Assembly (NCBI GenBank): GCA_047973305.1
Contig: JBKEBT010000150.1
Span: 1,548 to 65,547 of the forward strand
Direction: 5' to 3'
Origin: Pyrinomonadaceae bacterium
GTDB lineage: Bacteria; Acidobacteriota; Blastocatellia; Pyrinomonadales; Pyrinomonadaceae
Length of the DNA: 64,000 nt
The notes below the pieces were generated by a model. It was not told the origin of the DNA. It worked only from the letters and a program-made list of their open reading frames with translations, and ran no database searches. The translations under genes were made by a program, and so were the position numbers. The stretch's first letter is position 1, and the number at the start of each line of letters is the position of its first letter. Positions 1 through 16,313 of this stretch are shown here, piece by piece.

Positions 1-1002
1 GCCGATAAAACCAATCATTGCATATCCAGCGTGTGCAATTGAAGAATATGCCAGCATCCGCTTGATGTTGTTTTGCACAACCGCCGCTACGTTTCCGAAA
101 GTCATTGTCAAAATTGCCAAGATGCTTAGAACGGTAATCCATGATTCGTGCAAAACCGCCGAAACTTCAAGCCCGGCAATTAGGGGAAAGCCCAACACAA
201 AAATTCTAATAAATGAGGCGAACCCAGCGGTTTTTGGACCCGCAGCCATAAATGCCGTAACGGGTGTAGGCGCACCCTCGTAAACATCGGGTGTCCAAAC
301 ATGAAATGGAACAGTTGCAATTTTAAATCCGAAGCCAATCAACAACATCGCGCCGCCGATAACATAAAGAAGCGGATATTGCGCATTTGATATCCCGACC
401 GCAATTTTTGATATATTTGTTGTGCCACCCGCACCGTAAAGCAGTGCCATTCCGTAAAGCAAAAAGCCCGAGGCAAATGAACCCAAAATAAAATATTTCA
501 TTGCTGATTCATTTGAACGCAAATCGTTCTTTCGCATACCCGCCATTACATAAGTGGCAATCGAAAGCGTTTCCAGACCAAGAAATATGATCACGAGATC
601 GTTTCCCGATGCCATAAAAAGCATGCCTACGGTAGCAAAAATCAGCATCGTATGAAATTCACCCGGGTCTACTGATTCACGTTTCATCCAAATTCCCGAC
701 ATCAAAATTGTAAGTCCGCTTACAATCAGCATCACCAGCGAAAAGCTCAGCCGAATTCCATCGGTTACAATCATTCCGTTAAATCCGCCGCCAGCCAAAA
801 TCGGGTTAGCCCAACAATAAAATAGTGCACCCGCCGATGCCAATAAGCCGAGAATTGCAATTATCGAAGTTTCGCGCAGCTTGTTCGGACGAAAACTGTC
901 GTAAATCATCAAAATAATTCCGGTCAACGCCAAAATCATTTCGGGGGATACCGCCGAAATAACTACGTTGGGATCTGATAGTTCTGCCAAAAAAATATTC
1001 AT
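1..1002 (-). CDS. nuoN: NADH-quinone oxidoreductase subunit N, N-terminal part (gene runs off the left window edge)
   Basis: The minus-strand frame is open from the ATG at 1002..1000 to position 1, so it has no stop and is missing from the ORF track. My translation begins MNIFLAELSDPNVVISAVSPEMILALTGIILMIYDSF. It is a hydrophobic antiporter-like protein lying 8 nt downstream of the nuoM stop. Confidence 0.8.
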   Translation of the reverse strand, partial: MNIFLAELSDPNVVISAVSPEMILALTGIILMIYDSFRPNKLRETSIIAILGLLASAGALFYCWANPILAGGGFNGMIVTDGIRLSFSLVMLIVSGLTILMSGIWMKRESVDPGEFHTMLIFATVGMLFMASGNDLVIIFLGLETLSIATYVMAGMRKNDLRSNESAMKYFILGSFASGFLLYGMALLYGAGGTTNISKIAVGISNAQYPLLYVIGGAMLLIGFGFKIATVPFHVWTPDVYEGAPTPVTAFMAAGPKTAGFASFIRIFVLGFPLIAGLEVSAVLHESWITVLSILAILTMTFGNVAAVVQNNIKRMLAYSSIAHAGYAMIGFIG

Positions 1003-1010
1003 CGTAAATA

Positions 1011-2597: not shown

Positions 2598-2605
2598 TTA
2601 AAATC

Positions 2606-4786
2606 CTACGATACGAGCTTTAATCCGTAATAAATAAAATATCCGATAACAAATACGGCGCCGAGCAAAATAATCGCGGCATATGAGCGCACATAGCCTA
2701 CTTGAATTCTTCTAAACACAGCAGCTAGTTCTACTACAAATGCGCCAATTCCGTTGACAGCACCATCGATTATTCCAACATCGAACCCCTTCCAAAGCCC
2801 TTTTCTGGAAAAAGCTGTGATTGGGTCAACAATTAATTTGTTGTAAATTTCATCCAAATACCACTTTTGCACAAGAATTTTTGGCATCTTCTTGAGCGGA
2901 TGTTTTCCGAAATAGAAATAAGCGCCGATTACGGAAATAACCGCGAGCGTTAGCGAAAGAAGTGCCAATAAACGTTCGAGCGAAATTTCCGCGGGGTCAT
3001 GCGCCGCGTGTGCGGCTTCAGATGCCGACGCAGTCGCTTCCGCAGAATGTCCAGCGTTTCCGTGTGAACCTTCGGGCGCAACTTCCGTCGCGTGCGCGCC
3101 CGTTGACGGAACTTCGGCAATTACCGGTTCCAAAGTTTGTTCAAAAACATTAATATCGCCCGCGCCAACGCGGCTTGAAAGTGCATACGGAATTCCGACC
3201 AATCCGCCGGTTGTTGCCAAAAATGCCAAAATTATCAGCGGCACGGTCATGGAAAGCGGCGATTCATGCGGCTTAAAATCTTTGGGAAGTGCGTGATGGT
3301 CATCATCATGGGCGTGATCTTCGCCTTCTAATTCATCATGAAACCGTTCTTTGCCCCAGAAGGTCATAACCATCATTCGGGTCATATAAACCGCCGTCAT
3401 TACCGCGGTGATTAGACCTATCAACCATAAAAACTTTGAGTAACCACCGAATGCCGTGTTTGCAAAAGTTTTGTATAAAATTTCATCCTTTGAGAAGAAG
3501 CCGGCAAACGGAAACCAGCCGGCGATTGCCAATGTGCCGATTGCCATCGTAATCCACGTGATTTTCATATACTTCTTCAAATTCCCCATCTTTCGCATAT
3601 CTTGTTCATGATGCATTCCATTGATCACGGAACCAGAACCAAGAAAGAGAAGTGCTTTGAAGAAGGCGTGAGTCATTACGTGAAAAATCGCGGCTCCGAA
3701 TGCGCCCACACCGCACGCCAAAAACATATATCCAAGCTGCGAAACAGTTGAATATGCCAGAACCTTTTTTATGTCGTTTTGTGCAATTGCTATTGATGCG
3801 GCAAAAATCGCGGTTGCCGTTCCGATAGTTGCGACAATTGCCATCGCCATCGGCGCGTTTTGAAAGATGATGTTCGAGCGAACTACAAGATAAACTCCGG
3901 CGGTTACCATTGTTGCCGCGTGAATCAAAGCCGATACGGGTGTTGGACCCGCCATTGCGTCAGGCAACCACGTTAGCAACGGAATTTGCGCAGATTTTCC
4001 CGTTGCGCCAATAAACAAAAACAGCGCAGCAGAGGTTAAACCGCCGGCGAAAATCATATTCCACGTAAAGGGTTCCGCCGCGTTAATGTTTTGCGCAACC
4101 CAACTAAACACGCTCGAAACTTGCGTGCCTCCAACGTTTTTATCGAAGAAATTTAGGGTGCCCGTAAACGAATATATTAGGAACATTCCCATCAGAACGC
4201 CCCAATCTCCAATACGGTTCATCACAAACGCCTTTTTTGCAGCGCGTCGCGCTTCATCTTTTTCGATGTAGTAACCAATTAGAAGATACGAACAGAGTCC
4301 TACACCTTCCCAACCGACAAACATCAAAAGATAATTATCGGCAAGAACAAGCGTAAGCATTGCAAACATAAACAGGTTAAGATAAGCAAAGAACCTGTAA
4401 AAGCCGCTATCGCCATGCATATAGCCGGTTGCAAAAATGTGGATTAAGAGCCCCACAAACGTTATAAAGCAAACGTAAATGCCCGAAAGGCGATCCATTC
4501 CGAGGGCGAAATCGACATGGAAGTTTCCCACCTGAATCCACGTCCAGATTTGATCGAGAATCGGTTTATCGGCAAACAATGCACCGGCATGTCCTACGCC
4601 AACACCAAAGGCAATCATAAACGAAACGAGGCACGAAATACCGACCGCCATACAAGCTACAATGCCGCTAAATTTTTCATTCTTAAGCCTGCCACCAATC
4701 AGCCAATTTACAGCTGCGCCAACTAGCGGGGCGAAAATTATTACGCTTAATAGATTATTCTCAATCATTACTGTTAAAGAAAACAA
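2606..4786 (-). CDS. nuoL: NADH-quinone oxidoreductase subunit L (extended, 726 aa)
   Basis: Motifs GWEGVGLCSYLLIGYY, LPDAMAGPTPVSALIHAATMVTAGVY and AYSTVSQLGYMF match NuoL/ND5. It carries His/Asp- and Ala/His-rich insertions before the C-terminal lateral-helix region. Confidence 0.92.
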   Translation of the reverse strand: MFSLTVMIENNLLSVIIFAPLVGAAVNWLIGGRLKNEKFSGIVACMAVGISCLVSFMIAFGVGVGHAGALFADKPILDQIWTWIQVGNFHVDFALGMDRLSGIYVCFITFVGLLIHIFATGYMHGDSGFYRFFAYLNLFMFAMLTLVLADNYLLMFVGWEGVGLCSYLLIGYYIEKDEARRAAKKAFVMNRIGDWGVLMGMFLIYSFTGTLNFFDKNVGGTQVSSVFSWVAQNINAAEPFTWNMIFAGGLTSAALFLFIGATGKSAQIPLLTWLPDAMAGPTPVSALIHAATMVTAGVYLVVRSNIIFQNAPMAMAIVATIGTATAIFAASIAIAQNDIKKVLAYSTVSQLGYMFLACGVGAFGAAIFHVMTHAFFKALLFLGSGSVINGMHHEQDMRKMGNLKKYMKITWITMAIGTLAIAGWFPFAGFFSKDEILYKTFANTAFGGYSKFLWLIGLITAVMTAVYMTRMMVMTFWGKERFHDELEGEDHAHDDDHHALPKDFKPHESPLSMTVPLIILAFLATTGGLVGIPYALSSRVGAGDINVFEQTLEPVIAEVPSTGAHATEVAPEGSHGNAGHSAEATASASEAAHAAHDPAEISLERLLALLSLTLAVISVIGAYFYFGKHPLKKMPKILVQKWYLDEIYNKLIVDPITAFSRKGLWKGFDVGIIDGAVNGIGAFVVELAAVFRRIQVGYVRSYAAIILLGAVFVIGYFIYYGLKLVS

Positions 4787-4882
4787 TTTGTTTTCAACTA
4801 CTTTTTTCTACTTTCTTCCCAATTCACATCGCGGTATGCAGTTTGATTCGCGTAAACACTGCCATCGCAATGGTTTAACCGA

Positions 4883-5830
4883 CTACTTTTCTGCCGTATT
4901 CGAAACTGCATCATAATAAACCTTGCCGTTTCGTTGATCGAAAACAACAATTCGGTTCACGCCCACGTACAGCTTGGTCAAACTCGGACCTTTTTCGCCG
5001 TTCGGTGTAGCTTCAACGCATTTTGGCGTTGCAAAAACTGCGATTCTAAGATATTCAGCGATTTTCTTCGCCTGTTCACGATCTACAAAGAACGTGAAAT
5101 CATAGGATTCAGCAGAATTTGCATTTGCAACACATTTTCCACCACCCGCGATAGCCGTTCCATTTGCCAACGAACCAATTGCAAGTTCGTAAAGCGTTGG
5201 ATATTTTGAAAAATCGCTGTATCTAACTACGTTGCTCTTTCCGTCAAGCATCAGCTTTGAAAGCGCCCATCCAACCGCAAAACTAAATTCTTGCGTTTCA
5301 GCAGTGTAATTATTCGCGTTCTGAATTTCCGGAAAGCTTGGTCCATTCCATTGTCGGTCAAAAACAAACGCCATATCCGAAACTTTTCGCGGGTCGCCTT
5401 TCAGCTTCAAATTTGAAAAGTCACGATTAACACGTGCTGCATGTTCTTCTGTGGTTTCAAATTCACTCTTCGAAAAATTAATCGTGTTTAGCGCATCTAT
5501 CACATCGCCAACCGGATAGCTTTTCAAGTTAGAATCAAATATCGAAACTTCTTTCTTTGGCTCACTCCAAAATTCCCAAGTCATATTTGGGTGAAGCACA
5601 ACCTTAACGCCATCGGGCGTTGAGGCGATTATCGATTTCGAACCGGTTGAACTTTCGGGGGCTGAAAGTGCATCAGTTTTAACCACCTTTGCCGTTTTCG
5701 TAGGCTTTGTTGTCGTTTCGTTAACGCGTTTTCCTCCGGTCTTTGACTTAGTTGAAGTGCTTTGCGCTAACCCGCCAACGGAAAGGCTAATGGTAATAAT
5801 TGTCAAAAAAGTAACAAATCTAAAGTTCAT
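4883..5830 (-). CDS. Secreted hypothetical protein inserted between nuoK and nuoL
   Basis: ORF 4883..5872. The ATG at 5830 follows a GGGGGA Shine-Dalgarno and yields MNFRFVTFLTIITISLSVGGLAQ, which looks like a signal peptide. I recognised no family. Confidence 0.6.
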   Translation of the reverse strand: MNFRFVTFLTIITISLSVGGLAQSTSTKSKTGGKRVNETTTKPTKTAKVVKTDALSAPESSTGSKSIIASTPDGVKVVLHPNMTWEFWSEPKKEVSIFDSNLKSYPVGDVIDALNTINFSKSEFETTEEHAARVNRDFSNLKLKGDPRKVSDMAFVFDRQWNGPSFPEIQNANNYTAETQEFSFAVGWALSKLMLDGKSNVVRYSDFSKYPTLYELAIGSLANGTAIAGGGKCVANANSAESYDFTFFVDREQAKKIAEYLRIAVFATPKCVEATPNGEKGPSLTKLYVGVNRIVVFDQRNGKVYYDAVSNTAEK

Positions 5831-5895
5831 GAATCCCCCTAAGTGCCGAACAAACTCCGTTCTAACTTTCAATAGAATTTCGGGAGTGCAAAAAG

Positions 5896-6201
5896 CTAGT
5901 CTTTCATTAAATCGGCTTCATCTACGTCAACCGAAAGTTTATTACGGAAAAACGTGATGATGATGCCGAGCCCAACTGCCGCTTCCACCGCCGCAACGCT
6001 CATTACAACAAACACAAATAGCTGACCGGTTGTATCGCCATAATGCCGCGCAAATGCGACAAATGTTAGATTTACCGCGTTCAGCATTAATTCGATACAC
6101 ATAAACATACCAATTGCGTTGCGCTTGTAAATTACGCCAACTGCGCCGATAGTAAACAGTATGCCCGAAAGGGCAAGGTAACTTTCCAAACCGGGTTCCA
6201 T
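5896..6201 (-). CDS. nuoK: NADH-quinone oxidoreductase subunit K
   Basis: 101-aa protein with three TM segments and the motif [14 protein letters not shown]. It overlaps the nuoJ stop by 1 nt. Confidence 0.92.
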
Positions 6202-6728
6202 TATTCCGCCCCTTTTCCTGTTAAGTTTTTATTTTCCTTAAATCTACGCGCCATTATCATCGCACCGACTATACCCATCAAAAGTAAAATCCCGACGATT
6301 TCAACCGGCAAAAGGTATTCCGAATACATCGCCTCACCGATGCTAAGCGAAGTTCCCGCGAGCGTATTCTTGGGGGATGTTTGTGCCGCCGCGCGAACTA
6401 CATAAAATACAAAAAACGTTTGAGCCAAAAGAATTGCACCAAGAACGCCACCAACCGCATATAGGTAACGGAGGCTGTTTAACTTAAGTTCTTCATCCAA
6501 ATTAAGAAGCAAAATTACAAAAATCACCAAAACCATAATCGCGCCCGCATACACAAGAATTTGCGCAATCGCTATAAAGGGTGCCATTAAAGTTAGATAA
6601 ATACTTGCAAGCGCGATAAATGTACCAATCAACGAAATAGCGCTATATAGCGCGTTCCTCTGATATACGCAAGAAATCGCGCAAGCGATTGCAAGTCCGG
6701 CGAGTAAGAAAAATATCGGTGTAACCAT
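6201..6728 (-). CDS. nuoJ: NADH-quinone oxidoreductase subunit J
   Basis: 175-aa hydrophobic protein positioned between nuoH and nuoK, with an ND6-like pattern ([19 protein letters not shown]). Confidence 0.88.
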
Positions 6729-6807
6729 CGTAAATTTATTCGCAAAAGAAAGTTATTAACATAAGTTTAACGCTTTAATTTTGCATTTAAAGCCGCGCAC
6801 CAAAAAT

Positions 6808-7941
6808 CTAACGATTAAGAAGGAAAACAATTGTAACCGTCAAAATCAAATTCCCAATCGCAACCGGCAAAAGAAACTTCCAGCCAAAGTTCATAAGCTG
6901 GTCAAATCTAAAACGCGGTAACGTTCCGCGAATCCAAATATACAAAAACAAAAACGCAAATATTTTAATCAAAAAGCTGCCAAAGCTTAAAATCGCATAT
7001 AGCCAGCCTCCGGGTTCAGCCAGGTATCCGATTCCGGGTGTGTACCATCCGCCGAGAAAAAGCGTTACACACATAACCGAAACCGTGAACATATTCACGT
7101 ATTCCGCCATAAAAAACAACGCGAATTTCAGCGCCGAATATTCTGTATGAAAACCCGCAACCAGTTCTGTTTCAGCTTCTGGTAAATCAAACGGCACGCG
7201 ATTGGTTTCTGCAAAAGCCGCAATCAAAAACACGACAAAGCCCAAAAACTGTGGCACTATGAACCACTTCATATACCACGGCGCGGTAACTTGCGCGTTT
7301 ACAATGTCTGCCAAATTCAACGACCCTGCAATCATCACCACACCGATTACCGATGCGCCCATTGCCAATTCATATGAAATCATTTGTGCCGTTGAACGAA
7401 GTCCGCCAAAAAGTGAATACTTGGAGTTTGAAGACCAGCCAGCAAGTGCGATTCCGTAAACGCCAACCGAAGTTATGGCAAGAACATAAAGCACGCCGAT
7501 ATCCAATTGCGCAATTGAAAGCGGCATGTTAATCATTCGCGGCGCAAGCCAAGCAGCACCCTCGCCCAACAACGGAATCCCTTGAATATAGGGCAAAATT
7601 GCGCCAAGCGGATCCTTTATGGTGGGTCCGAACGGATAAACAATCATTGGCATCAGCGCGCAGGTTAACGCAACTACCGGCGCGAGATAAAAAATCACCT
7701 TTGTTGATTTATCCGGTGCGATATCTTCCTTAACAATAAATTTCAAAAGATCGGCGAACGGTTGTAACAATCCCCATGGTCCTACACGGTTGGGACCTAC
7801 GCGCCCTTGCAGCCATCCCAGCACTTTTCGTTCCGCCAAAACGGTATATGCAACAATCATCAAAACTACGCCAAAAGCGAGTATTGCAGCAATCAAAATT
7901 GCGACGATTGGAAAAATTGTGTCAGCCAAAGAAGTTTGCAT
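6808..7941 (-). CDS. nuoH: NADH-quinone oxidoreductase subunit H
   Basis: Motifs AERKVLGWLQGRVGPNRVGPWGLLQPFAD and ETNRVPFDLPEAETELVAGFHTEYS are typical of NuoH/ND1. Confidence 0.95.
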   Translation of the reverse strand: MQTSLADTIFPIVAILIAAILAFGVVLMIVAYTVLAERKVLGWLQGRVGPNRVGPWGLLQPFADLLKFIVKEDIAPDKSTKVIFYLAPVVALTCALMPMIVYPFGPTIKDPLGAILPYIQGIPLLGEGAAWLAPRMINMPLSIAQLDIGVLYVLAITSVGVYGIALAGWSSNSKYSLFGGLRSTAQMISYELAMGASVIGVVMIAGSLNLADIVNAQVTAPWYMKWFIVPQFLGFVVFLIAAFAETNRVPFDLPEAETELVAGFHTEYSALKFALFFMAEYVNMFTVSVMCVTLFLGGWYTPGIGYLAEPGGWLYAILSFGSFLIKIFAFLFLYIWIRGTLPRFRFDQLMNFGWKFLLPVAIGNLILTVTIVFLLNR

Positions 7942-7943
7942 AA

Positions 7944-10184
7944 TTAATTTACCGTCGCCGCCTCCGTTTCAGCCGATTTCGGCGAACCATCCGGATTCAT
8001 TTGCGAAAGCGGGGAAACGAAAAGCGATTCCGGCTTTGGGTTTCCGTTTGCAAGCAAATGAAACTGCATGGTTTTCTCTGTCATTGTTGTCAGACGAAAC
8101 AGCTTGTGTCCGACTTTCGGCGTTACTTCGTTCTTTTTGCCGTTATCAACCAATGAAGCAATGCCACCCGAAAGCCGTTCGAGCGATGCCGAAATATCTG
8201 CGGTTTCGTTTATTGAATGTTTTATTTGAACCGGGTTTGATTCATCTCTCAAATCAGGATATCGCAACCCTTGGTAGATACTTACGGATTCCGCAATATC
8301 GCGAAAAACCGCCGATGCGGACATTTCGTATCCGAAATCTACACCCATTTTCTTTGCAATTGCCGCTGTAATCATCCAATCTGCCCTGGATTGGTAAACC
8401 GGTTCTATTGCCTTTCTAACGCGTTGCACATTTCCCGCATTGTTTGTGTAAGTGCCGTCAACCTCCGCAAAACTTGCAGCAGGCAAAACAATATCCGCGT
8501 ATTCGGTGGTTTCGTTTTCAAACATTTCCTGAACAACAACAAATTCCTTGCCCGCCAAACCGGAAATATCGTAAACGCCACCGCCGATTAAAAGCACATT
8601 TGAAGTTTCGATAACATCCTCAAAGGTTCGTTTGCCTTCCATCATATCGTTTGCGCCGATGGAATTATTATAAAGTGGAAGTGGATGAATTAGCACGCGC
8701 GAACTTTCGCCACCCAAATTCTTTGCCACACCCGCAAACACGGCTTGAGAATGTTTTGAAAGATTGCCGCCAATCATCACTATAATGTCACCCGCGGTTT
8801 CGGCAAGTGTGTTCTTGATTTGCGTAACCTCATCTTTTGAAACGCCCATTTTTGCACACGCTGTTTCGTCACCACTGAGCAGCGCAGGCGCAAATGCCTC
8901 AATCGAACCGGTATTTACGTGTAAAAACTGTGTTGCGGTTGCGGTTAAACGTATTGGTGTTTCATTAACTATTATCAACTTCGCGTTGTTTTTATCTGCC
9001 GCTTGGCGAATTTGCTTCGCCGTAAAGGTCTGTTCTTCTTCAGGTTCGCCGCCGATTAGAAGAATAGTTTTTGCATAACGAATTTCCTTGTGCGTGGAAA
9101 GCGGGGCGCTAAGATTTTCAAACAACGGCGCGAGATCGTACGCATCCGATATCGCAAAATTGTCGTTTGCAAGCACATCACGCGCGAACCGTTTTAAGGT
9201 AAAAATCGCCTCGTTTGTCAGCCTTGAGCTCGCAATAACGCCAATGTTAGAAGTGGTCGCCGCAAAGCGTTCTGCAATCATTCCAAGGGCATCATCCCAT
9301 GTTGCGGGAATAAGCTTTCCGCCTTTTTTATATCTAACCAAAGGCGTTCTAATACGATCCGGATGATTAATAAATTCGTGAGCGAACCGTGCTTTTACAT
9401 CCAAAAACTCACCGTTTAAGCCGTTTACGTATCTGTCACGCGCGACAATTCTGTGAACTTCACCGGCGCGTGAACCTATTGAAAGCTGCATTCCGTCAGA
9501 ACCGTAAGTATCGGTTGTGATTGTTTGGTCAAGCTCCCAAGGACGGGTGGAATGCTTATAAACTCCGTCGAGAAGCGTTCCGGTCGGACAAACTTCAACA
9601 CAGTTTCCGCACTGTGAACAATCAAGCCAGCCGCCGTATGTGCCGATTACGGAATTTGCACCGCGATTTGCCGCTTCTATTACGTCTTCGCCCATCCATT
9701 CATGGCAAACCCGCGTACAACGTTTACATAAAATGCACCGTTGCTGATCGTTTGCCACCATCGGAGAAAGATACTTTTCCGGATGTGCATTTTTATTTTC
9801 ATGAAAGCGACCTTCAATATCGCCCCAATCGAATATAACTTCCTGCAATTCGCATTCGCCGCCGCGATCACAAACAGGGCAATCCAGCGGGTGGTTTGCA
9901 AGAAGAAATTCGCCCATTGCACGTTGTGATTTTTCGATTTCTTCACTTTTTGTCGTGACGACCATACCTTCGCGCACGGGAATTGAGCAAGATGCCTGCA
10001 ACTTCGGCATTTTTTCAATTCGAACCAAGCACATGCGGCACGATGCCTGCACTTTCAAATCGCTGTAATAACAAAACGATGGAATTCCGCAACCGTTGTT
10101 ATTGCAAGCATCTATAAGCGGCGAACCTTCCGGAACTTCCACTTCTTGCCCATCAATCGTGATTTTTACTAGATTTTCTGACAT
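7944..10184 (-). CDS. nuoG: NADH-quinone oxidoreductase subunit G (75-kDa type)
   Basis: N-terminal 2Fe-2S and 4Fe-4S cysteine motifs (CRMCLV, HPLDCPVCDRGGECELQ, CILCKRCTRVC, CSQCGNCVEVCPTG) followed by a molybdopterin-oxidoreductase-like domain. I placed the start at the ATG at 10184; the track uses a TTG at 10193. Confidence 0.92.
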   Translation of the reverse strand: MSENLVKITIDGQEVEVPEGSPLIDACNNNGCGIPSFCYYSDLKVQASCRMCLVRIEKMPKLQASCSIPVREGMVVTTKSEEIEKSQRAMGEFLLANHPLDCPVCDRGGECELQEVIFDWGDIEGRFHENKNAHPEKYLSPMVANDQQRCILCKRCTRVCHEWMGEDVIEAANRGANSVIGTYGGWLDCSQCGNCVEVCPTGTLLDGVYKHSTRPWELDQTITTDTYGSDGMQLSIGSRAGEVHRIVARDRYVNGLNGEFLDVKARFAHEFINHPDRIRTPLVRYKKGGKLIPATWDDALGMIAERFAATTSNIGVIASSRLTNEAIFTLKRFARDVLANDNFAISDAYDLAPLFENLSAPLSTHKEIRYAKTILLIGGEPEEEQTFTAKQIRQAADKNNAKLIIVNETPIRLTATATQFLHVNTGSIEAFAPALLSGDETACAKMGVSKDEVTQIKNTLAETAGDIIVMIGGNLSKHSQAVFAGVAKNLGGESSRVLIHPLPLYNNSIGANDMMEGKRTFEDVIETSNVLLIGGGVYDISGLAGKEFVVVQEMFENETTEYADIVLPAASFAEVDGTYTNNAGNVQRVRKAIEPVYQSRADWMITAAIAKKMGVDFGYEMSASAVFRDIAESVSIYQGLRYPDLRDESNPVQIKHSINETADISASLERLSGGIASLVDNGKKNEVTPKVGHKLFRLTTMTEKTMQFHLLANGNPKPESLFVSPLSQMNPDGSPKSAETEAATVN

Positions 10185-10195
10185 ATTCGGCAAAT

Positions 10196-10318
10196 TTATT
10201 TGCTTTCAGCCTTGTTTTCAACGTTTGCTTTTCGTTGTTTTTTTGGTCGCGGACGAACATTTCCGTACGAACCCGCAAAAATCTTTCCTCGTCTTGTTTT
10301 CTTATCGCCTCTTCCCAT
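10196..10318 (-). CDS. 30S ribosomal protein bTHX (40 aa), absent from the ORF track
   Basis: Hand translation of the minus strand gives MGRGDKKTRRGKIFAGSYGNVRPRPKKQRKANVENKAESK. Upstream it reads TTAGGAGACACA-ATG, an AGGAGA Shine-Dalgarno. It closely matches Thermus Thx as I remember it ([27 protein letters not shown]). Confidence 0.8.
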   Translation of the reverse strand: MGRGDKKTRRGKIFAGSYGNVRPRPKKQRKANVENKAESK

Positions 10319-10371
10319 TGTGTCTCCTAAAAAGTAGTTTTCTTGTTATTGAATAATCTCGAAATACTTTT

Positions 10372-11646
10372 CTACGTCAAATATTTCTTAAAATCTTCCG
10401 GAAAGCGTTTTACGGCACCTTGAATTGACCACGTTGCCGCGTCGCCAAGCGGGCAAAACGATTTTCCTTCGATGTTGTCGCAAAGATCTAATATTAACTG
10501 TGCATCTTCAGGTCTGCCACCGCCATTTGCAATTCGGGTAAATATTTTTGTAAGCCAATCGGTTCCTTCACGGCACGGCGTGCACCATCCGCACGATTCG
10601 TGCTTGTAAAATTCAATCAAATTTTTTGTGGAATCTACAATATCGACGGTTTCATCCATTACGATAAACCCGCCTGAGCCCACCATCGAACCGCCCTCCA
10701 CCAAACCTTCGTAATCCATTCGTACGTTTTTGCCGATGATTTGATCGGCGCGCATCACGTAAACCGATGACCCGCCGGGAATGCAGGCTTTTAGCTTTTT
10801 ATCGTCACGAAGCATGCCGCCGCAGTCTTCAAAAATGAATTTTTCCAAATCCATATAACCCATTGGAAGTTCATAAACTCCGGGTTTCTTTACGTGTCCG
10901 GATACCGACCACAGCTTCGTTCCGCCTGATTTTTCCGTACCTAACTTTTGCCAAGCTTCACCACCCATTTTAATAATCTGCGGTATAGCCGTTAACGTTT
11001 CCACATTGTTTACGACCGTCGGCGATTCATAAAGCCCCTCAAGGGCAGGGAAAGGCGGCTTCATACGCGGGTGTCCGCGGTTACCTTCAAGCGATGAAAG
11101 AAGCGCGGTTTCTTCACCGCAAATGTATGCACCGGCGCCCGTTTGTGTATAAAGATTGCAAGAAAAATCGCTTCCCAAAATACTTGCGCCCAACACTCCG
11201 GCTTCTTTCGCTTCATCTATGGCTTTATCCATTATGTCGATCAAGTAACGATATTCGCCACGAAAATAGATGTAACAACTTTCCGCGCCAAGCGTGTAGG
11301 CGGCAATCAACATTCCCTCAATCAATGCGTGTGGATCCCGTTCAAGCAGATATCTATCTTTAAACGTACCGGGTTCAGATTCATCGGCGTTGCAAACGAT
11401 ATATTTCTGCTTTGGGGAATCACGCGGAACAAACGACCATTTCATTCCCGTTGGAAACCCCGCGCCGCCACGCCCGCGAAGCGACGATTTTTTTACCTCT
11501 TCAATTATTTCATCGGAAGACATGCCCAGCGCCTTCTTCAAAGATTCGTAGCCACCGTGTTCTTTATACACTTGTAACGTATGCCCATTTTCGATGTGCA
11601 TCATTTTAAGTTGTAGTGGCTCGCAACCAATCGCTTTGATTTCCAT
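10372..11646 (-). CDS. nuoF: NADH-quinone oxidoreductase subunit F
   Basis: Contains the FMN/NADH-site motifs GRGGAGFPTG and CNADESEPGTFKDR, and the N3 cluster motif ESCGWCTPCREG. Confidence 0.95.
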   Translation of the reverse strand: MEIKAIGCEPLQLKMMHIENGHTLQVYKEHGGYESLKKALGMSSDEIIEEVKKSSLRGRGGAGFPTGMKWSFVPRDSPKQKYIVCNADESEPGTFKDRYLLERDPHALIEGMLIAAYTLGAESCYIYFRGEYRYLIDIMDKAIDEAKEAGVLGASILGSDFSCNLYTQTGAGAYICGEETALLSSLEGNRGHPRMKPPFPALEGLYESPTVVNNVETLTAIPQIIKMGGEAWQKLGTEKSGGTKLWSVSGHVKKPGVYELPMGYMDLEKFIFEDCGGMLRDDKKLKACIPGGSSVYVMRADQIIGKNVRMDYEGLVEGGSMVGSGGFIVMDETVDIVDSTKNLIEFYKHESCGWCTPCREGTDWLTKIFTRIANGGGRPEDAQLILDLCDNIEGKSFCPLGDAATWSIQGAVKRFPEDFKKYLT

Positions 11647-11881
11647 AAACTTATTGTCTTAATTACTTTGGGTGTCTCTTATGATGTTTTCCCAAAATAT
11701 TGCTTCTTAACGGTAATTTTTTATCCAAACTAATAACGGCGCATTTCGGGCGAAAAATGCTCGAAACAGGTTAAGAAAAGTTTCGCCGGATTCGTTTGAA
11801 AGGGAGTCTGTCGCACTAGACCTTGCCCACAGCTACCAACACCTTGCTTTTTCGTCAGTTCGTCATTAATCGAACCCGATG

Positions 11882-12763
11882 CTATTTTGTCGCACCCTCC
11901 GAAACGTTGTAATCCATTCTCAAATAAATCGTAAACTGAACAACCGGCGCTATTCCGATTTCGCCAATTGATTTGTCGAAATCAGTTGATTCAAGCGGCA
12001 CGTAGTAAAACGTAAAACTCTTTCGTTCTAAAACCTGGTTTCCGGTATTGTAATTCGTTCGTGCGCCGCCGGTTTCAAATGCCTGATAACGTTGGTAGCG
12101 CGAAGCCGGATAATGTGTGCCGTAAACTTCCCTTGAAAGCCCGGCGGGAAAAAGTTTAACTCCAAATGAATTTCTATACGCGGTCTCCTTTTCCTTAATA
12201 ACCTTCACCGCTTCCGCAAAAAGTTTAGATTTGTAACTTTCTGCATTTGTCACAAGATAATCAACCTTTATGAGATCGAAAATCCCCAGTTTCGCTGCGG
12301 TTTCGATTACCTTTTCAAATAACTCTTCTTGCTTAAACTTAACGGCGACCGTCTTTTTGGTCTCAAATCCGTTTTGAAATTCGGTTGCAGTGTTTCCGAC
12401 GACCTTAAAATCATAAACACGGTTTTGTGTTATGAAATCTACGTAAATATCTGATTCCTTTATGCCGAATGGTTTTAAATCAGCCTTAAAAGCACTGATT
12501 TGTGCATTTAGCTTTTGGTTGTTCAGCGCAGGTGTTTTGTTTTCTTCCTGAATTCCGAACACCGCAATGAATTCATCCGCTTTGACGCTTGTTAAAACAC
12601 TTGCTTCAATCGAATATTCGTTCTTATCGTTAGAAGAATCAAGAACGCCCGTATTCGCCTGAGCCCGTTTTTCGGAACCGTCATAAACTTGATTCCCGCT
12701 CATTTGCGCAAGCGCAGGCAAACAAAAAAACGTCAAAAGAAAAAATACACTTAACTGTTTCAT
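11882..12763 (-). CDS. Secreted SIMPL/DUF541-like protein inserted between nuoE and nuoF
   Basis: Has a signal peptide (MKQLSVFFLLTFFCLPALAQ). The segment IEASVLTSVKADEFIAVFGIQEENKTPALNNQKLNAQISAFKADLKPFGIKESDI resembles the SIMPL fold pattern. Its ATG overlaps the nuoE TGA as ATGA. Confidence 0.5.
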   Translation of the reverse strand: MKQLSVFFLLTFFCLPALAQMSGNQVYDGSEKRAQANTGVLDSSNDKNEYSIEASVLTSVKADEFIAVFGIQEENKTPALNNQKLNAQISAFKADLKPFGIKESDIYVDFITQNRVYDFKVVGNTATEFQNGFETKKTVAVKFKQEELFEKVIETAAKLGIFDLIKVDYLVTNAESYKSKLFAEAVKVIKEKETAYRNSFGVKLFPAGLSREVYGTHYPASRYQRYQAFETGGARTNYNTGNQVLERKSFTFYYVPLESTDFDKSIGEIGIAPVVQFTIYLRMDYNVSEGATK

Positions 12764-13293
12764 ACTGCATCAAGCGAATCAATAAGCTCATCGAGCGATT
12801 CCTTTGTCAAATTTTCGTGATAATCAAACCCGATTTGCATCATCGGTGCCGTTCCACAACTGCCTAAACATTCAACCCGCGTAACCGTAAACTTACCATC
12901 TTCAGTGGTTTCGCCGGGGTTAATTCCCAACCTGCTGCAAATATGGTTTGTTAAATCCTCTTCGCCCATTATTCGACAGGACAGCGTTTTACACATCTGA
13001 ATATGGTATTTCCCAACCGGATGAACGTTAAACATCGAATAGAAAGTTGCTGTTTCCCAAACATCGGTAACTTCGACATTCAAGAAGTTTGCCAAGAAAT
13101 TTACCCCCGGATTATCTACATATCCACGCTCACGCTGCACCACAAAAAGAAGCGGAATAAGTGCCGAACGCTGCCGCCCCTCAGGATATTTCGAAAGATG
13201 CAATTTCATCTCCGCAACAACTTCTTCGGAAAACTCCGCGACCTCATTGGTGACGTTAACTTTGTTTGTATAATCAGTTGCAACTGATGCCAT
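12760..13293 (-). CDS. nuoE: NADH-quinone oxidoreductase subunit E
   Basis: Thioredoxin-like 2Fe-2S motifs (CKTLSCRIMG, CLGSCGTAPMMQI) and the expected operon position. Confidence 0.93.
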   Translation of the reverse strand: MASVATDYTNKVNVTNEVAEFSEEVVAEMKLHLSKYPEGRQRSALIPLLFVVQRERGYVDNPGVNFLANFLNVEVTDVWETATFYSMFNVHPVGKYHIQMCKTLSCRIMGEEDLTNHICSRLGINPGETTEDGKFTVTRVECLGSCGTAPMMQIGFDYHENLTKESLDELIDSLDAV

Positions 13294-13338
13294 ATTCTTA
13301 AATCCTACATTACCCCAAATCTTACTGAGACTATTTGT

Positions 13339-14547
13339 TTACCGATCTATTTCACCTAATACGATATCAAGCGAGCCAATGATTGCCACAACATCCGCGA
13401 TCAATTCGCCTTCGGTCATATCCGGCAAAGCGGACAGATTAACAAAACTTGGACCGCGAAAATGAACACGCTCCGGTTTTGGTCCGCCGTTTGATTTCAT
13501 ATAAACGCCAAGTTCGCCTTTTGAGGCTTCAATCGCATGATAAACCTCACCTTCCGGAACGTTAAACCCTTCAGCAACGATTAGAAAGTGATGAATTAAC
13601 GAATCCATCTGCGTTCGCATATCTTTTCGATCTGGCAGAACAACCTTCGGAGCGTCAGCCTTAATCGGACCTGGTTTTAAACGTTCAAGTGCTTGTCGGG
13701 CAATCTTTGCAGATTCACGGAATTCACGCATACGCACCATAAATCGCGCCCAGACATCACACCCGGTTTCTACCGGAATTTCAAAGTCGTACGTTTCGTA
13801 TCCGGAATACGGCTCATGACGCCGCAAGTCTAGCTCAACGCCACTTCCCCGAAGGCTTGGACCCGTCAGCCCCCAGTCAATCGCATCGTCTCGACTTATA
13901 TAACCAATTTCTTTTGTGCGACTCTGAAACAAAGGGTTTCCGGTCAGTAAATTATCAAACATTTCAAGCGCTGCGGGGAACTCATCCAAAAACTGACGAG
14001 CGCGATTATCAAAACCGGCGGGCAAATCCATCATCAAACCACCTATTCTGAAATAGCTCGGCGTCATTCGACCGCCTGAAGCGGATTCAATTAGGTTGAG
14101 AATTTTTTCACGTTGCCTGAAACAATAAAATAAGAGGCTCATTGCACCAATATCGAGTGCATGCGTGCCGAGCCAAACCAAATGCGAAGCGATGCGCTGC
14201 AATTCGCACATTAAAACGCGAATTACTTGGGCACGTTCAGGAATTTCAATTTGCAGGAGTTTTTCAGCCGCCATTACGTATGCAAGATTATTACCTAGGG
14301 GGTTCAAGTAATCCATTCGGTCAGTAATAACAATGCCTTGCTGGTATTTACGATATTCGAACAGCTTCTCCATTCCGGTATGGAGATAACCGATATCGGG
14401 AATTGTCCGAACCACAACCTCACCGTCAAGTACAAGTTCTAGCCGCAACACGCCGTGCGTAGAAGGATGCTGCGGACCCATCGAAATCGTCATTTGCGAT
14501 TCCAGCGGTTCATCGGTAATAAAATCTTTATCAACAATTGCACTCAT
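13339..14547 (-). CDS. nuoD: NADH-quinone oxidoreductase subunit D
   Basis: Motifs MGPQHPSTHGVLRL, GYLHTGMEK and C-terminal IIGSLDIVLGEIDR match the 49-kDa subunit. Confidence 0.95.
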   Translation of the reverse strand: MSAIVDKDFITDEPLESQMTISMGPQHPSTHGVLRLELVLDGEVVVRTIPDIGYLHTGMEKLFEYRKYQQGIVITDRMDYLNPLGNNLAYVMAAEKLLQIEIPERAQVIRVLMCELQRIASHLVWLGTHALDIGAMSLLFYCFRQREKILNLIESASGGRMTPSYFRIGGLMMDLPAGFDNRARQFLDEFPAALEMFDNLLTGNPLFQSRTKEIGYISRDDAIDWGLTGPSLRGSGVELDLRRHEPYSGYETYDFEIPVETGCDVWARFMVRMREFRESAKIARQALERLKPGPIKADAPKVVLPDRKDMRTQMDSLIHHFLIVAEGFNVPEGEVYHAIEASKGELGVYMKSNGGPKPERVHFRGPSFVNLSALPDMTEGELIADVVAIIGSLDIVLGEIDR

Positions 14548-14552
14548 AGAAA

Positions 14553-15038
14553 TTATGTCAAACTATAGGGTTCATAACCGCGCAACGGATAGTCTTTTCT
14601 AAGCGCGTGACCATCGAAATCAGACGGGAGCAAAATTCTTCGTAAATCAGGATGATTTTCAAAAACAATCCCAACCAAATCATAAGTTTCGCGTTCGTGC
14701 CAATTCGCCGTTTTCCAAACTCCGGTAACGCTTGGCAATTTTGCATCATCTTCTGATAATAATACTTTCAGACGTATTCGTTTGTGATGAATGGTCGAAA
14801 AGAGATGATAAATTACTTCGAATCGTGGATCTACTTCCGGACCGTGATCCGCCCCGCATAAATCGGAAAGCAGATTAAACTGGAATTCCGATTTCAGAAC
14901 TTCACAAAAGTCGGCAATCGTTTCTTTTTGAGTCAAAATTGTAAACTCACCCAATTGTTCGGTCACGTCCGCAACAAATGATTCGTGTCTTGATTTGATT
15001 TCAGCAACCAATTCTGTTGTTTCACTAAACTTATTCAT
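14553..15038 (-). CDS. nuoC: NADH-quinone oxidoreductase subunit C
   Basis: 30-kDa subunit pattern (FEVIYHLFS, ANWHERETYDLVGIVFENHPDLRRILL). Confidence 0.92.
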   Translation of the reverse strand: MNKFSETTELVAEIKSRHESFVADVTEQLGEFTILTQKETIADFCEVLKSEFQFNLLSDLCGADHGPEVDPRFEVIYHLFSTIHHKRIRLKVLLSEDDAKLPSVTGVWKTANWHERETYDLVGIVFENHPDLRRILLPSDFDGHALRKDYPLRGYEPYSLT

Positions 15039-15046
15039 ATTTAGGC

Positions 15047-15679
15047 TTATGACGATCGTCGTTTTTCGTGCTTTGCCGGAACCTTATAAGGTTTTTCACT
15101 TGCGGCTTCCGCAAGTTCTTCTAGCGCAGTGCCTTCCGTGACCGGAAGGGTGCCCGGTACGACCGATTCTCTTGATTCAACTTCGATTGTATCCGGTCGG
15201 TCTTTAACTGAATCTTTCAGGATCTTCTCTTGAAGCATTGTAATTGCGTGAACCAGCATTTCGGGGCGCGGAGGGCAACCCGGAATATAAATATCGACCG
15301 GAACAACCTTATCAACGCCTTGAACAATAGCGTAATTATCAAATACACCACCGGATGTGGCGCAAGCACCCATTGAGATAACCCATTTTGGTTCGGGCAT
15401 TTGATCATAAATTCTTCGAAGTACCGGCGCCATTTTTCTCGAAACCCTTCCGGAAACAATCATCACGTCCGCTTGCCTGGGCGATGCGCGAAACGTTTCA
15501 GCGCCAAATCTAGACAAATCATTACGAGAATTTACGCTGTTCATCATCTCAATTGCGCAACATGCCAAACCAAATGTAGCGGGCCATATTGACGATTTGC
15601 GTGCCCAGTTAATGACCGCATCAAGTTTTACCGTTACAACATCCGGAAGAGAGTTAAATACTGTATTTTCAATACCCAT
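15047..15679 (-). CDS. nuoB: NADH-quinone oxidoreductase subunit B (with about 50-aa C-terminal tail)
   Basis: PSST-type motifs [27 protein letters not shown] and GCPPRPE. An acidic/basic C-terminal extension follows the conserved core. Confidence 0.93.
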
Positions 15680-15699
15680 AATTTTTTTGGCTTACTCAT

Positions 15700-16191
15700 T
15701 TAAGCGGCTTTCTTAAGCTCTGACTCAATTTTAGTCTTCTTTGCCAATTTAAGCTTTTGTGCTTCGATTAATGCTTCTTCGCGCGATTCTTTGCTCCATT
15801 CAAATGCTCCTTTTTTCCATTCGTAAACTAAACCGATGATTACTGTTGTAAGGAAAAAGAGCATCGTAAAAAATGCAATGGTTCCGTAAAAAATTCCGGT
15901 TTGGTTTTCTAAGCCCAACAATTTCTTAAACGCAACGGCAAACGGAACCACAAAAAGAATTTCAATATCAAATAACAGAAACGCGACTGCAACCATATAA
16001 AATTTAATCGAAAATCTGTCGCGTGCAGAGCCGACGGGGTCCTTTCCACACTCATATGGCATAAGTTTTGTTGCCGTGCTCTTGCGCGGACCAATTATTT
16101 GCCCAACCAAAATTTGGCTGAGGGCAAAACCGGCGGCGACCAAAAACATAATTCCTATCGGCGCATAATCAAGAAGGCTAAATTCTTCCAT
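15700..16191 (-). CDS. nuoA: NADH-quinone oxidoreductase subunit A (with charged C-terminal tail)
   Basis: ND3-like motifs (YECGKDPVGSARDRFSIKFY, FLLFDIEILF). It is the first gene of the operon. Confidence 0.9.
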   Translation of the reverse strand: MEEFSLLDYAPIGIMFLVAAGFALSQILVGQIIGPRKSTATKLMPYECGKDPVGSARDRFSIKFYMVAVAFLLFDIEILFVVPFAVAFKKLLGLENQTGIFYGTIAFFTMLFFLTTVIIGLVYEWKKGAFEWSKESREEALIEAQKLKLAKKTKIESELKKAA

Positions 16192-16284: not shown

Positions 16285-16313
16285 ATCGTATGTTATGCGC
16301 AAAACACTGTCAA
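16285..16313 (-). promoter_or_regulatory. Candidate sigma70 promoter of the nuo operon
   Basis: The minus strand reads TTGACA (16313..16308), a 17-nt spacer, then TACGAT (16290..16285). It lies about 90 nt upstream of the nuoA ATG. Confidence 0.45.

What the first reader, a model, noticed from the sequence alone, without database searches (positions are those of the whole stretch)
10196..10318. Unannotated ribosomal protein bTHX gene embedded between nuoF and nuoG
Seen in the sequence: the 178-nt gap between nuoF and nuoG contains a minus-strand ORF preceded by an AGGAGA Shine-Dalgarno. It encodes MGRGDKKTRRGKIFAGSYGNVRPRPKKQRKANVENKAESK.

Established knowledge: Thermus Thx, as I recall it ([27 protein letters not shown]), shares the GxGDxxTRRGKIxxGxYGxxRPR core.

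The ORF is below the 60-aa cutoff of the track, which instead lists a spurious plus-strand ORF at 10096..10356. Its stop is only 11 nt from the nuoG ATG.

Inference: the short distance to nuoG implies co-transcription, and possibly translational coupling, of a ribosomal protein with respiratory complex I genes. That is an unusual linkage, and genes this small are routinely missed in annotation.
Basis: partly seen in the sequence, partly recalled or inferred. Interest (0 to 1): 0.6.

Follow-up and report, generated by a model that had tools for sequence, protein, structure and literature searches.

The report
bTHX gene inside complex I operon
A real 40-codon gene for the tiny ribosomal protein bTHX lies between two respiratory complex I genes in a soil acidobacterium, and a whole clade of relatives inherited this placement from one ancestor; the gene family itself is ordinary and already recognised.

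Summary
Window 10196..10318 (-) encodes exactly the 40-aa peptide quoted. An AGGAGA Shine-Dalgarno lies 4 nt upstream, 53 nt separate it from the nuoF stop and 11 nt from the nuoG ATG.

It is a bona fide bTHX. It scores 56.4 bits on TIGR04560 (cut-off 26) and 39.9 bits on Pfam Thx (cut-off 29.7). It is the only copy above cut-off in the genome and is under purifying selection (dN/dS about 0.15-0.23).

The organism is a Pyrinomonadaceae-like acidobacterium. The order nuoF-thx-nuoG was seen at 81 loci. On a NuoF tree all 66 such rows form one clade with 100% support. Family members with thx elsewhere, or with no thx, fall outside it.

No thx locus outside this clade is nuo-linked: 0 of 53 loci from other phyla, 0 of 20 from a sister family, 0 of 12 from other acidobacterial families.

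NCBI already names orthologues "30S ribosomal protein THX". Co-transcription with nuoG is likely from spacing but was not shown. Translational coupling has no specific support.

The scan had not noted this linkage before. Interest is modest.

The parts
10196..10318 (-). thx: gene for 30S ribosomal protein bTHX, 40 aa plus stop (4.5 kDa, pI 11.45)
   Evidence: Searches give the ORF and translation. TIGR04560 scores 56.4 bits (cut-off 26) and PF17070 39.9 bits (cut-off 29.7). The best solved relative is Thermus Thx, E 3e-7. dN/dS is about 0.15-0.23 over 78 distinct sequences.
10323..10328 (-). Shine-Dalgarno AGGAGA, 4 nt before the thx ATG
   Evidence: Read. An SD-like GGAG/GAGG/AGGA precedes thx in 74 of 77 distinct nuo-linked loci.
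10319..10371 (-). 53-nt nuoF-thx spacer
   Evidence: It holds no terminator-like site. One chance-level promoter-like match (10380..10353, 9 of 12) reaches into the nuoF 3' end. No Rfam match and no unusual RNA fold.
10185..10195 (-). 11-nt thx-nuoG spacer, with no SD for nuoG
   Evidence: The spacer is at most 60 nt in 57 of 77 distinct loci, and nuoG has an SD-like motif in 3 of 77.
10372..11646 (-). nuoF (NADH-binding 51-kDa subunit)
   Evidence: Pfam Complex1_51K E 1.1e-48 and NADH_4Fe-4S E 1.4e-30.
7944..10184 (-). nuoG (75-kDa Fe-S subunit), start taken as the ATG at 10184
   Evidence: Pfam Fer2_4, NADH-G_4Fe-4S_3, Fer4_Nqo3 and Molybdopterin. Homologue alignments start at this ATG.
1..16191 (-). 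The surrounding nuo cluster. Order: nuoA B C D E, SIMPL, nuoF, thx, nuoG H J K, a 329-aa unknown, nuoL M N. nuoN runs off the window.
   Evidence: Pfam scans and gene spacings. The best promoter-like site on this strand is TTGACA-17-TACGAT at 16313..16285, upstream of nuoA. Hits over the cluster as a whole are at chance level.

Best explanation
The ORF is the genome's single gene for ribosomal protein bTHX (Thx), a very basic peptide that in Thermus sits in the head of the 30S subunit. In the ancestor of one large clade of Pyrinomonadaceae-like Acidobacteriota the gene came to lie between nuoF and nuoG, and it has stayed there through genus-level diversification.

In this genome it is most likely transcribed on the same RNA as nuoG, probably as part of the long nuo transcript. 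This is inferred from the 11-nt spacer, the lack of a terminator and the lack of a conserved promoter.

It probably reaches ribosomal-protein output through its own strong, conserved Shine-Dalgarno, in a genome and an operon where such sites are rare. That too is inferred.

The placement looks like tolerated hitch-hiking in an operon that accepts foreign inserts, not a functional tie to complex I.
For: Identity:
- Curated HMM cut-offs are exceeded.
- The best solved relatives are Thermus Thx and plant bTHXc/bTHXm.
- The AlphaFold model has mean pLDDT 81.7. Its only four Foldseek rows are Thx, bTHXc and bTHXm chains, with rmsd 1.1-1.3 A to Thermus Thx, but E is only 0.13-1.6.
- It is the sole copy over cut-off in a genome that is 95.9% complete.

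Selection:
- pN/pS is 0.23 over 3003 pairs. JC-corrected dN/dS is 0.15 over the 1303 pairs with pS below 0.7.
- Third codon positions vary 0.40, against 0.12 for the first two.

Synteny:
- In the same genus, 21 of 21 genomes have thx. nuoG lies directly downstream at 20 of 22 loci; the other two are cut by contig ends.
- Of 80 loci from named genomes, 27 are labelled acidobacterial and all 27 are nuo-linked. None of the other 53 is.
- Of 40 sampled family loci, 32 are linked.

Single origin:
- All 66 linked NuoF rows form one clade, SH-aLRT 100. The 5 rows with thx elsewhere and the 4 thx-less rows of the same family fall outside it.
- A linked genus that branches early within the linked clade carries a thx core 96% identical (positions 2-26) to that of an unlinked genus of the same family. 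This suggests the resident gene moved rather than a foreign copy arriving.

Co-transcription:
- The spacer to nuoG is at most 60 nt in 57 of 77 distinct loci.
- The gap has no terminator-like site.
- Sigma-70-like promoter matches are not enriched upstream of thx: 10 of 77 against 13 of 77 in control windows.

Strong SD:
- 74 of 77 loci have one before thx.
- In the whole genome, 383 of 2187 long ORFs have an SD 4-mer at the first start. An AGGAG/GGAGG core lies near a start in 190 of 2209, against 24 in internal controls. These are rough figures.
- In the window's cluster 6 of 15 genes show an SD-like 4-mer. Only thx carries the full AGGAGA, read by eye from that listing.

Hitch-hiking:
- Relatives carry unrelated genes in the nuoF-thx or thx-nuoG spacers: LCAT-like lipase, secretory-lipase-like hydrolase, SUKH, aspartyl protease, DUF1579, Uma2 and DUF2283.
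- Outside the clade thx sits just downstream of other unrelated genes on the same strand: a GH29 fucosidase, an M20 peptidase or QueG.
Against: - There is no transcript, proteomic or ribosome evidence for this organism.
- A promoter-like site (TTGACG-16-GATTAT, 10380..10353) lies just upstream of thx, and another (10221..10193) lies inside its 3' end. Both are at chance level and the first is not conserved. Promoters of other kinds were not tested.
- In 13 of 80 loci thx and nuoG are more than 300 nt apart, often with another gene between. Tight adjacency is therefore not obligatory.
- thx is missing from whole genera of the family (g22 0 of 26, g20 0 of 3, g24 0 of 2, g25 0 of 3) and from one genome inside the linked clade's genus g19. 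The protein is dispensable there.
- The SD-usage figures rest on crude start calls.
- The NuoF tree is a quick single-gene tree.
- The 16S rRNA 3' end was not found in the assembly, so the anti-SD is assumed canonical.
Confidence: 0.8

Rival explanations
1. thx heads its own transcription unit. A promoter in the nuoF 3' end or the 53-nt spacer drives thx, with nuoG-nuoH read through behind it. In that case thx expression is independent of nuoA-F and the position is a neutral accident.
For: A promoter-like TTGACG-16-GATTAT lies at 10380..10353, about 34 nt before the ATG. In 18 of 72 loci an unrelated gene separates nuoF from thx, so thx cannot always depend on nuoF read-through alone. A ribosomal protein needs far more copies than complex I does.
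Against: The promoter-like match is at chance level (2 found against 1.5 +/- 1.1 in shuffles) and is not conserved (10 of 77 against 13 of 77 in controls). The largest ORF found in each of those spacers lies on the same strand, so read-through stays possible.
Confidence: 0.2
2. The linkage is functional. Either thx translation primes nuoG translation (coupling or re-initiation across the 11-nt spacer), or the cell co-regulates ribosome make-up with respiratory complex I.
For: The spacers are very short: at most 34 nt in 54 of 77 distinct loci (counted by eye from the listing). nuoG almost never has its own SD (3 of 77). The arrangement has been kept across a clade spanning at least 13 genera.
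Against: nuoG lacks an SD just as often when it is far from thx (1 of 20 have one) as when close (2 of 57), and most genes of this genome lack one. Relatives without thx have nuoF joined directly to nuoG. In 13 of 80 loci thx is more than 300 nt from nuoG, and other genes were found in those spacers where they were examined. The operon also tolerates SIMPL and a 329-aa unknown gene.
Confidence: 0.1
3. In this clade the peptide has been recruited as an accessory subunit or assembly factor of complex I and is no longer, or not only, a ribosomal protein.
For: Only the position between two peripheral-arm subunit genes.
Against: The rRNA-binding core is conserved as in Thermus and in unlinked relatives. 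It is the only thx copy in the genome. Thx-less relatives keep nuoF and nuoG. No binding test was run.
Confidence: 0.03
4. It is a chance ORF in an intergenic spacer and not a gene.
For: It is short, at 40 codons.
Against: HMM scores are well above the curated cut-offs. Orthologues were seen at 81 loci with dN/dS about 0.15-0.23. The SD is conserved.
Confidence: 0.01

Closest known systems
Thermus thermophilus 30S ribosomal protein Thx (bTHX; PF17070, TIGR04560; e.g. PDB 1FJG chain V)
   Same: The whole 26-27-residue core aligns without gaps (E 3e-7). It has the same GxGDxxTRRGKIxxGxYGxxRPR motif and the same very basic character. The model superposes at 1.1-1.3 A over 21-23 columns.
   Different: The window protein has a 13-residue Lys/Glu/Asn-rich C-terminal extension. 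The host is a Pyrinomonadaceae-like acidobacterium; an earlier unchecked note calls it a soil acidobacterium, and its growth temperature was not examined. In T. thermophilus the gene lies downstream of the S20 gene (passages of PMC3353972), whereas here it lies between nuoF and nuoG.
Plant organellar bTHXc (PSRP4 / chloroplast S31) and bTHXm (mitochondrial S31)
   Same: The same core domain, with phmmer E 6e-6 to 3e-4 and a below-cut-off Pfam RPS31 hit (26.3 bits against 32.5). They too carry C-terminal extensions (bioRxiv 10.64898/2026.07.03.736309, passages read).
   Different: They are nuclear-encoded with targeting peptides and are longer (94-136 aa chains). They have no operon context.
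bTHX of Bacteroidota and other phyla (databases; Yutin et al. 2012, PMC3353972)
   Same: The N-terminal core is 53-87% identical by tblastn, over the first 23-40 residues depending on the locus. Some copies have long Lys/Ala/Pro/Glu tails, as some nuo-linked copies do.
   Different: 0 of 53 non-acidobacterial loci are next to nuo genes. By eye, the 20 nt upstream of the Bacteroidota genes listed mostly lack an SD, unlike the acidobacterial ones; this was not counted.
Ribosomal-protein genes in mixed operons, e.g. rpsU-dnaG-rpoD of E. coli (recalled, not checked here)
   Same: A small, non-universal ribosomal-protein gene is co-located with genes of another cellular system.
   Different: That operon is a documented transcription unit that links macromolecular synthesis. 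Here the partner is respiratory complex I, and co-transcription is only inferred.

Membership tests
bTHX / Thx (PF17070, TIGR04560) | Whole-protein score above the curated HMM cut-offs | tested here: met
   TIGR04560 (equivalog) scores 56.4 bits against a cut-off of 26. PF17070 scores 39.9 against 29.7, covering profile positions 1-26/26 and 1-27/27. NF011339, the Thermus-type model, scores 39.5 against 58 and is not reached.
bTHX / Thx (PF17070, TIGR04560) | Conserved N-terminal core motif (M-G-x-G-D-x-x-[TS]-x-[RK]-G-K-I ... G ... G ... R) | tested here: met
   M1, G4, D5, G11, K12, I13, G19 and R22 are invariant across 24 relatives. The core aligns residue for residue with Thermus Thx.
bTHX / Thx (PF17070, TIGR04560) | Very small, highly basic peptide | tested here: met
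   40 aa, 4.5 kDa, pI 11.45, with 14 K+R against 3 D+E.
bTHX / Thx (PF17070, TIGR04560) | Fold like Thx in solved ribosomes (extended N-terminus plus a short helix) | tested here: inconclusive
   The AlphaFold model has mean pLDDT 81.7 and a helix at 9-15. All 4 Foldseek rows are Thx, bTHXc or bTHXm chains, but E is 0.13-1.6 because the peptide is so short. The predictor may also have learned these structures.
bTHX / Thx (PF17070, TIGR04560) | Physically part of the 30S subunit head | not testable with these tools
   This needs proteomics or cryo-EM of ribosomes from a member of the clade.
bTHX / Thx (PF17070, TIGR04560) | Kept as a protein-coding gene in relatives (purifying selection, normally one copy) | tested here: met
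   dN/dS is about 0.15-0.23 over 78 distinct sequences. There is one copy over cut-off in the own genome and one match in 20 of 21 same-genus genomes. G007, 77% complete, has two.
nuo (complex I) operon as a transcription unit | Same strand, short spacers, no terminator between thx and its nuo neighbours | tested here: met
   The spacers are 53 nt and 11 nt, with no terminator-like site in 9800..10800. The spacer to nuoG is at most 60 nt in 57 of 77 distinct loci.
nuo (complex I) operon as a transcription unit | A transcript that spans nuoF-thx-nuoG | not testable with these tools

The most novel reading that the evidence does not exclude
The thx gene is kept between nuoF and nuoG because the linkage does work. 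Its strongly initiated, Lys-codon-rich (A-rich) reading frame would deliver ribosomes, or an unstructured A-rich leader, to the SD-less nuoG start 11 nt downstream. Synthesis of the complex I peripheral arm and of a non-essential 30S head protein would then be tied to each other. This would be a way of matching ribosome make-up to respiratory capacity in an SD-poor bacterium.
Probability: 0.08. Interest if true: 0.5.

Novelty: new member of a known kind. Interest (0 to 1): 0.25.

Why it matters
The gene itself adds nothing new in kind. bTHX is a described family, and annotation pipelines already name these orthologues.

Three points are worth recording:
- bTHX is present in Acidobacteriota but patchy (32 of 201 sampled genomes). 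A recent preprint calls it ubiquitous only in Thermales and Bacteroidetes and suggests a link to heat tolerance. The passages read from Yutin et al. 2012 list Thermales, Bacteroidetes, some Gammaproteobacteria, one spirochaete and one planctomycete.
- One clade of Pyrinomonadaceae-like bacteria has carried the gene inside the complex I gene cluster since a single ancestral event. This gives a clean synteny marker for that clade. It is also a natural case of a ribosomal-protein gene whose output must be set by translation rather than transcription.
- Relatives that lost the gene offer natural knock-outs for asking what bTHX does in bacteria other than thermophiles.

None of this overturns current understanding.

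Tried and rejected
- RNA evidence: a look-up of public sequencing runs for window 9600-10900 listed none, so no reads could be laid. This says nothing either way.
- RNA element in the spacers: no Rfam match at E up to 1 in 9800..10800. The 211-nt nuoF-thx-nuoG junction folds no better than shuffles (z 0.11).
- Dedicated sigma-70-like promoter: not enriched upstream of thx (10 of 77 against 13 of 77 and 0 of 76 in two control windows).
- Coupling test through SD presence: nuoG lacks an SD whatever its distance from thx, so the test does not discriminate.
- Pseudogene remnant in thx-less relatives: only chance-level tblastn hits (E at least 0.05) in 5 loci. ORF listings of two of them show other small ORFs or none.
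- Bacteroidia-style idea that the SD marks an autoregulated ribosomal gene: dropped once the organism proved to be an acidobacterium. The genome is nevertheless SD-poor.
- 16S rRNA 3' end: not found in the assembly with short conserved motifs.
- Literature: 'ribosomal protein Thx' + Acidobacteria gave 0 papers. Thx + nuoG + ribosomal gave 0 papers. The F. johnsoniae ribosome paper PMC7797042 does not contain 'THX'. Supplements of Yutin et al. 2012, including File S2 that lists genomes with Thx, were not opened.
- Foldseek against the PDB gave no match at E 0.001 or better.
- No complex prediction was run, because no binding claim is made.
- Earlier scan notes: no look-alike by sequence and none on the nuo linkage.

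Full report
**Observation**

The minus-strand ORF at 10196..10318 is present. It translates exactly to the quoted 40-residue peptide.

Reading the minus strand, AGGAGA lies at 10328..10323, four bases (CACA) before the ATG at 10318. The nuoF stop is 53 nt upstream. The thx stop TAA (10198..10196) lies 11 nt before the nuoG ATG at 10184.

With the ATG favoured by homologue alignments the gap is 187 nt.

The flanking genes are nuoF and nuoG by Pfam. The antisense 86-aa ORF 10096..10356 matches no family.

**Identity**

- The peptide scores 56.4 bits on the NCBIfam equivalog TIGR04560 (cut-off 26) and 39.9 bits on Pfam Thx (cut-off 29.7), over the full length of both profiles.
- The narrower Thermus-type model NF011339 is not reached (39.5 against 58).
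- Among solved structures the best relatives are Thermus Thx (E 3e-7) and then plant mitochondrial and chloroplast bTHX.
- The peptide is 4.5 kDa with pI 11.45.
- An AlphaFold model (mean pLDDT 81.7) retrieves only Thx-type chains from the PDB, at rmsd 1.1-1.3 A. The E-values are non-significant, as expected for so short a chain.
- A six-frame scan of the whole genome (95.9% complete) finds no second copy: 55.4 bits here, 15.1 bits for the next best.

**Organism**

Named public contigs with the most similar thx loci are labelled Pyrinomonadaceae, Blastocatellia or Acidobacteriota. The window has 43% G+C.

**Conservation of gene and arrangement**

- In the same genus, 21 of 21 genomes have thx. 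nuoG lies directly downstream at 20 of 22 loci, and the other two are cut by contig ends.
- Of 80 loci from named genomes, 27 carry nuoF and/or nuoG beside thx. These are exactly the 27 with acidobacterial labels.
- The other 53 loci are Bacteroidota, Gammaproteobacteria, Betaproteobacteria, Ignavibacteria/Chlorobiota, Gemmatimonadales, Fibrobacteria and Anaerolineae. None of them is nuo-linked.
- Across 301 genomes of the class, thx occurs in 137. That is 78 of 119 in the window's family f1, 57 of 87 in f3, 1 of 14 in f4 and 0 of 80 in the other seven families.
- I fetched 40 of the 78 f1 loci, chosen to cover every thx-bearing genus, and 20 of the 57 f3 loci.
- In f1, 32 of 40 are nuo-linked. 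The 8 that are not belong to two genera. There thx follows an M20 peptidase gene (g18; one of the six loci scanned by Pfam) or a QueG gene (g21; one of two scanned).
- In f3, 0 of 20 are linked. thx follows a roughly 445-500-aa ORF on the same strand at most of the nine f3 loci inspected, and the three of these scanned by Pfam are GH29 fucosidases.
- Across the phylum, thx is in 32 of 201 sampled genomes. Of 12 loci fetched from other acidobacterial families, none is nuo-linked.
- One genome in these counts (G010, locus L005) is unpublished. No claim depends on it.

**One origin**

I built a quick maximum-likelihood NuoF tree (80 rows, LG+G4, SH-aLRT only). Loci without a NuoF hit of at least 270 aa and identical duplicates were left out.

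All 66 nuo-linked rows fall in one clade with 100% support. The 5 family members with thx elsewhere and the 4 without thx branch outside it, below the outgroup-rooted node.

Thx-less genera have nuoF joined to nuoG by roughly 40-90 nt (g22, g24; estimated from the alignment ends). In g25 other small ORFs lie between them, and in g20 a gap of about 660 nt was not examined.

One genome of a linked genus has an LCAT-like lipase gene, then 157 nt, then nuoG, with no thx.

An early-branching linked genus (g23) has a thx core 96% identical to that of the unlinked genus g21. This fits relocation of the resident gene, but 25 residues are weak evidence.

**Selection**

These figures cover the first 26 codons of 78 distinct sequences.

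- Mean pS is 0.73 and mean pN 0.16, a ratio of 0.23.
- For the 1303 of 3003 pairs with pS below 0.7, dN/dS is 0.15.
- Third positions vary 0.40, against 0.12 at positions 1 and 2.

The C-terminal tails are not conserved. Lengths run from 37 to 196 aa (median 44), and 11 of 81 are 100 aa or longer.

**How it is probably expressed**

This section is inferred, not shown.

- The thx-nuoG spacer is at most 60 nt in 57 of 77 distinct loci (61 of 80 before removing duplicates). That is too short for a terminator plus a promoter.
- No terminator-like site lies in the window's gap. Terminator-like hits over the cluster as a whole are at chance level (27 against 24.9 +/- 5.0 in shuffles).
- Sigma-70-like promoter matches upstream of thx are no more frequent than in control windows (10 of 77 against 13 of 77).
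- The window's own match at 10380..10353 is at chance level.
- The best promoter-like site on this strand lies upstream of nuoA.
- An SD-like motif precedes thx in 74 of 77 loci but precedes nuoG in only 3 of 77.
- The genome is SD-poor by a rough count. 383 of 2187 long ORFs have an SD 4-mer at the first start. An AGGAG/GGAGG core lies near a start in 190 of 2209, against 24 in internal controls.

A strong SD is therefore the likeliest way this gene out-produces its neighbours from a shared RNA.

**Against a functional tie to complex I**

- nuoG lacks an SD whether thx is near (2 of 57 have one) or far (1 of 20).
- In 13 of 80 loci more than 300 nt separate thx from nuoG, and in 18 of 72 more than 700 nt separate nuoF from thx. 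These spacers contain ORFs, and 13 of them were scanned by Pfam.
- The families found were LCAT-like lipase, secretory-lipase-like hydrolase, DUF5648 with a crystallin domain, SUKH, aspartyl protease, DUF1579, Uma2 and DUF2283. Three of the scanned ORFs matched no family.
- The window's own cluster also holds a SIMPL gene and an unknown 329-aa ORF, and it lacks nuoI, which is on another contig.
- The cluster is thus permissive to inserts, and thx behaves elsewhere as a small rider behind unrelated genes.

**Comparison with what is known**

- The passages read from Yutin et al. 2012 (PMC3353972) report Thx in Thermales, nearly all Bacteroidetes, some Gammaproteobacteria, one spirochaete and one planctomycete. 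They say its location is usually away from ribosomal genes. Those passages do not list Acidobacteria.
- A 2026 preprint (passages) still describes bTHX as ubiquitous only in Thermales and Bacteroidetes.
- Two full-text searches found no paper that links Thx with Acidobacteria or with nuoG.
- Public annotation already recognises the gene. The exact protein is in the predicted-protein collection with PF17070 attached.
- Of 7 nuo-linked orthologues looked up, 3 clusters carry the NCBI name '30S ribosomal protein THX/Thx', and the other 4 carry no name. One relative is labelled 'hypothetical protein'.

**Verdict**

The gene is an ordinary member of a known family.

The conserved, single-origin nuoF-thx-nuoG placement in a Pyrinomonadaceae clade is a real and apparently undescribed piece of synteny. 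Nothing found here suggests more than tolerated hitch-hiking. Interest is modest.

Noticed in passing
window 11882..12763 (-): A SIMPL/DUF541 gene (Pfam E 1.1e-13) lies between nuoE and nuoF. It overlaps the nuoE stop by 4 nt, and a 235-nt gap follows before nuoF. It is another non-nuo gene inside the cluster.
   Followed up: no
window 6729..6807; L178 (G000 contig C15): No nuoI lies between nuoH and nuoJ; the gap is only 79 nt. The single NuoI match of the genome (TIGR01971, 140 bits) is on another contig.
   Followed up: partly
window 4883..5872 (-): A 329-aa ORF with no Pfam match lies between nuoK and nuoL on the same strand.
   Followed up: no
L038, L059, L067, L040, L045, L094, L124, L039, L143, L009 (spacers beside thx): In relatives the nuoF-thx and thx-nuoG spacers are insertion hot spots. 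The inserts include an LCAT-like lipase of about 450 aa (recurrent), a secretory-lipase-like hydrolase, DUF5648 with a crystallin domain, a SUKH immunity protein, an aspartyl protease, DUF1579, a Uma2 nuclease and DUF2283.
   Followed up: partly
L021, L023-L025, L014, L132-L134, L094, L151 and Bacteroidota loci such as L041, L076, L110: Some bTHX genes carry long Lys/Ala/Glu/Pro-rich C-terminal tails. Among nuo-linked loci they reach 196 aa, and 11 of 81 are 100 aa or longer. In Bacteroidota they reach 233 aa. Earlier scan notes describe the same in Bacteroidia.
   Followed up: partly
whole genome G000: The genome appears SD-poor. An SD-like 4-mer lies at the first start of 383 of 2187 ORFs of 200 aa or more. 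An AGGAG/GGAGG core lies near a start in 190 of 2209, against 24 in internal controls. These are rough counts made without a gene finder, and no 16S 3' end is in the assembly.
   Followed up: partly
L153-L172 (family f3); L113-L118 (g18); L119-L120 (g21): Outside the nuo-linked clade, thx at most of the 15 loci inspected lies 25-170 nt downstream of an unrelated same-strand gene. Pfam scans (5 loci) name these as a GH29 alpha-L-fucosidase in f3, an M20 peptidase in g18 and QueG in g21.
   Followed up: partly
family f1 genera g22, g20, g24, g25; genome G044: thx was not found in whole genera of the same family (0 of 26, 0 of 3, 0 of 2 and 0 of 3 genomes; those listed are 96-100% complete). It is also missing from one genome of a linked genus. 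The protein seems dispensable there.
   Followed up: partly
L012 and L032 (genome G007): One same-genus MAG (77% complete, 2% contamination) has two different thx loci on two contigs. This may reflect strain mixture in the bin.
   Followed up: no
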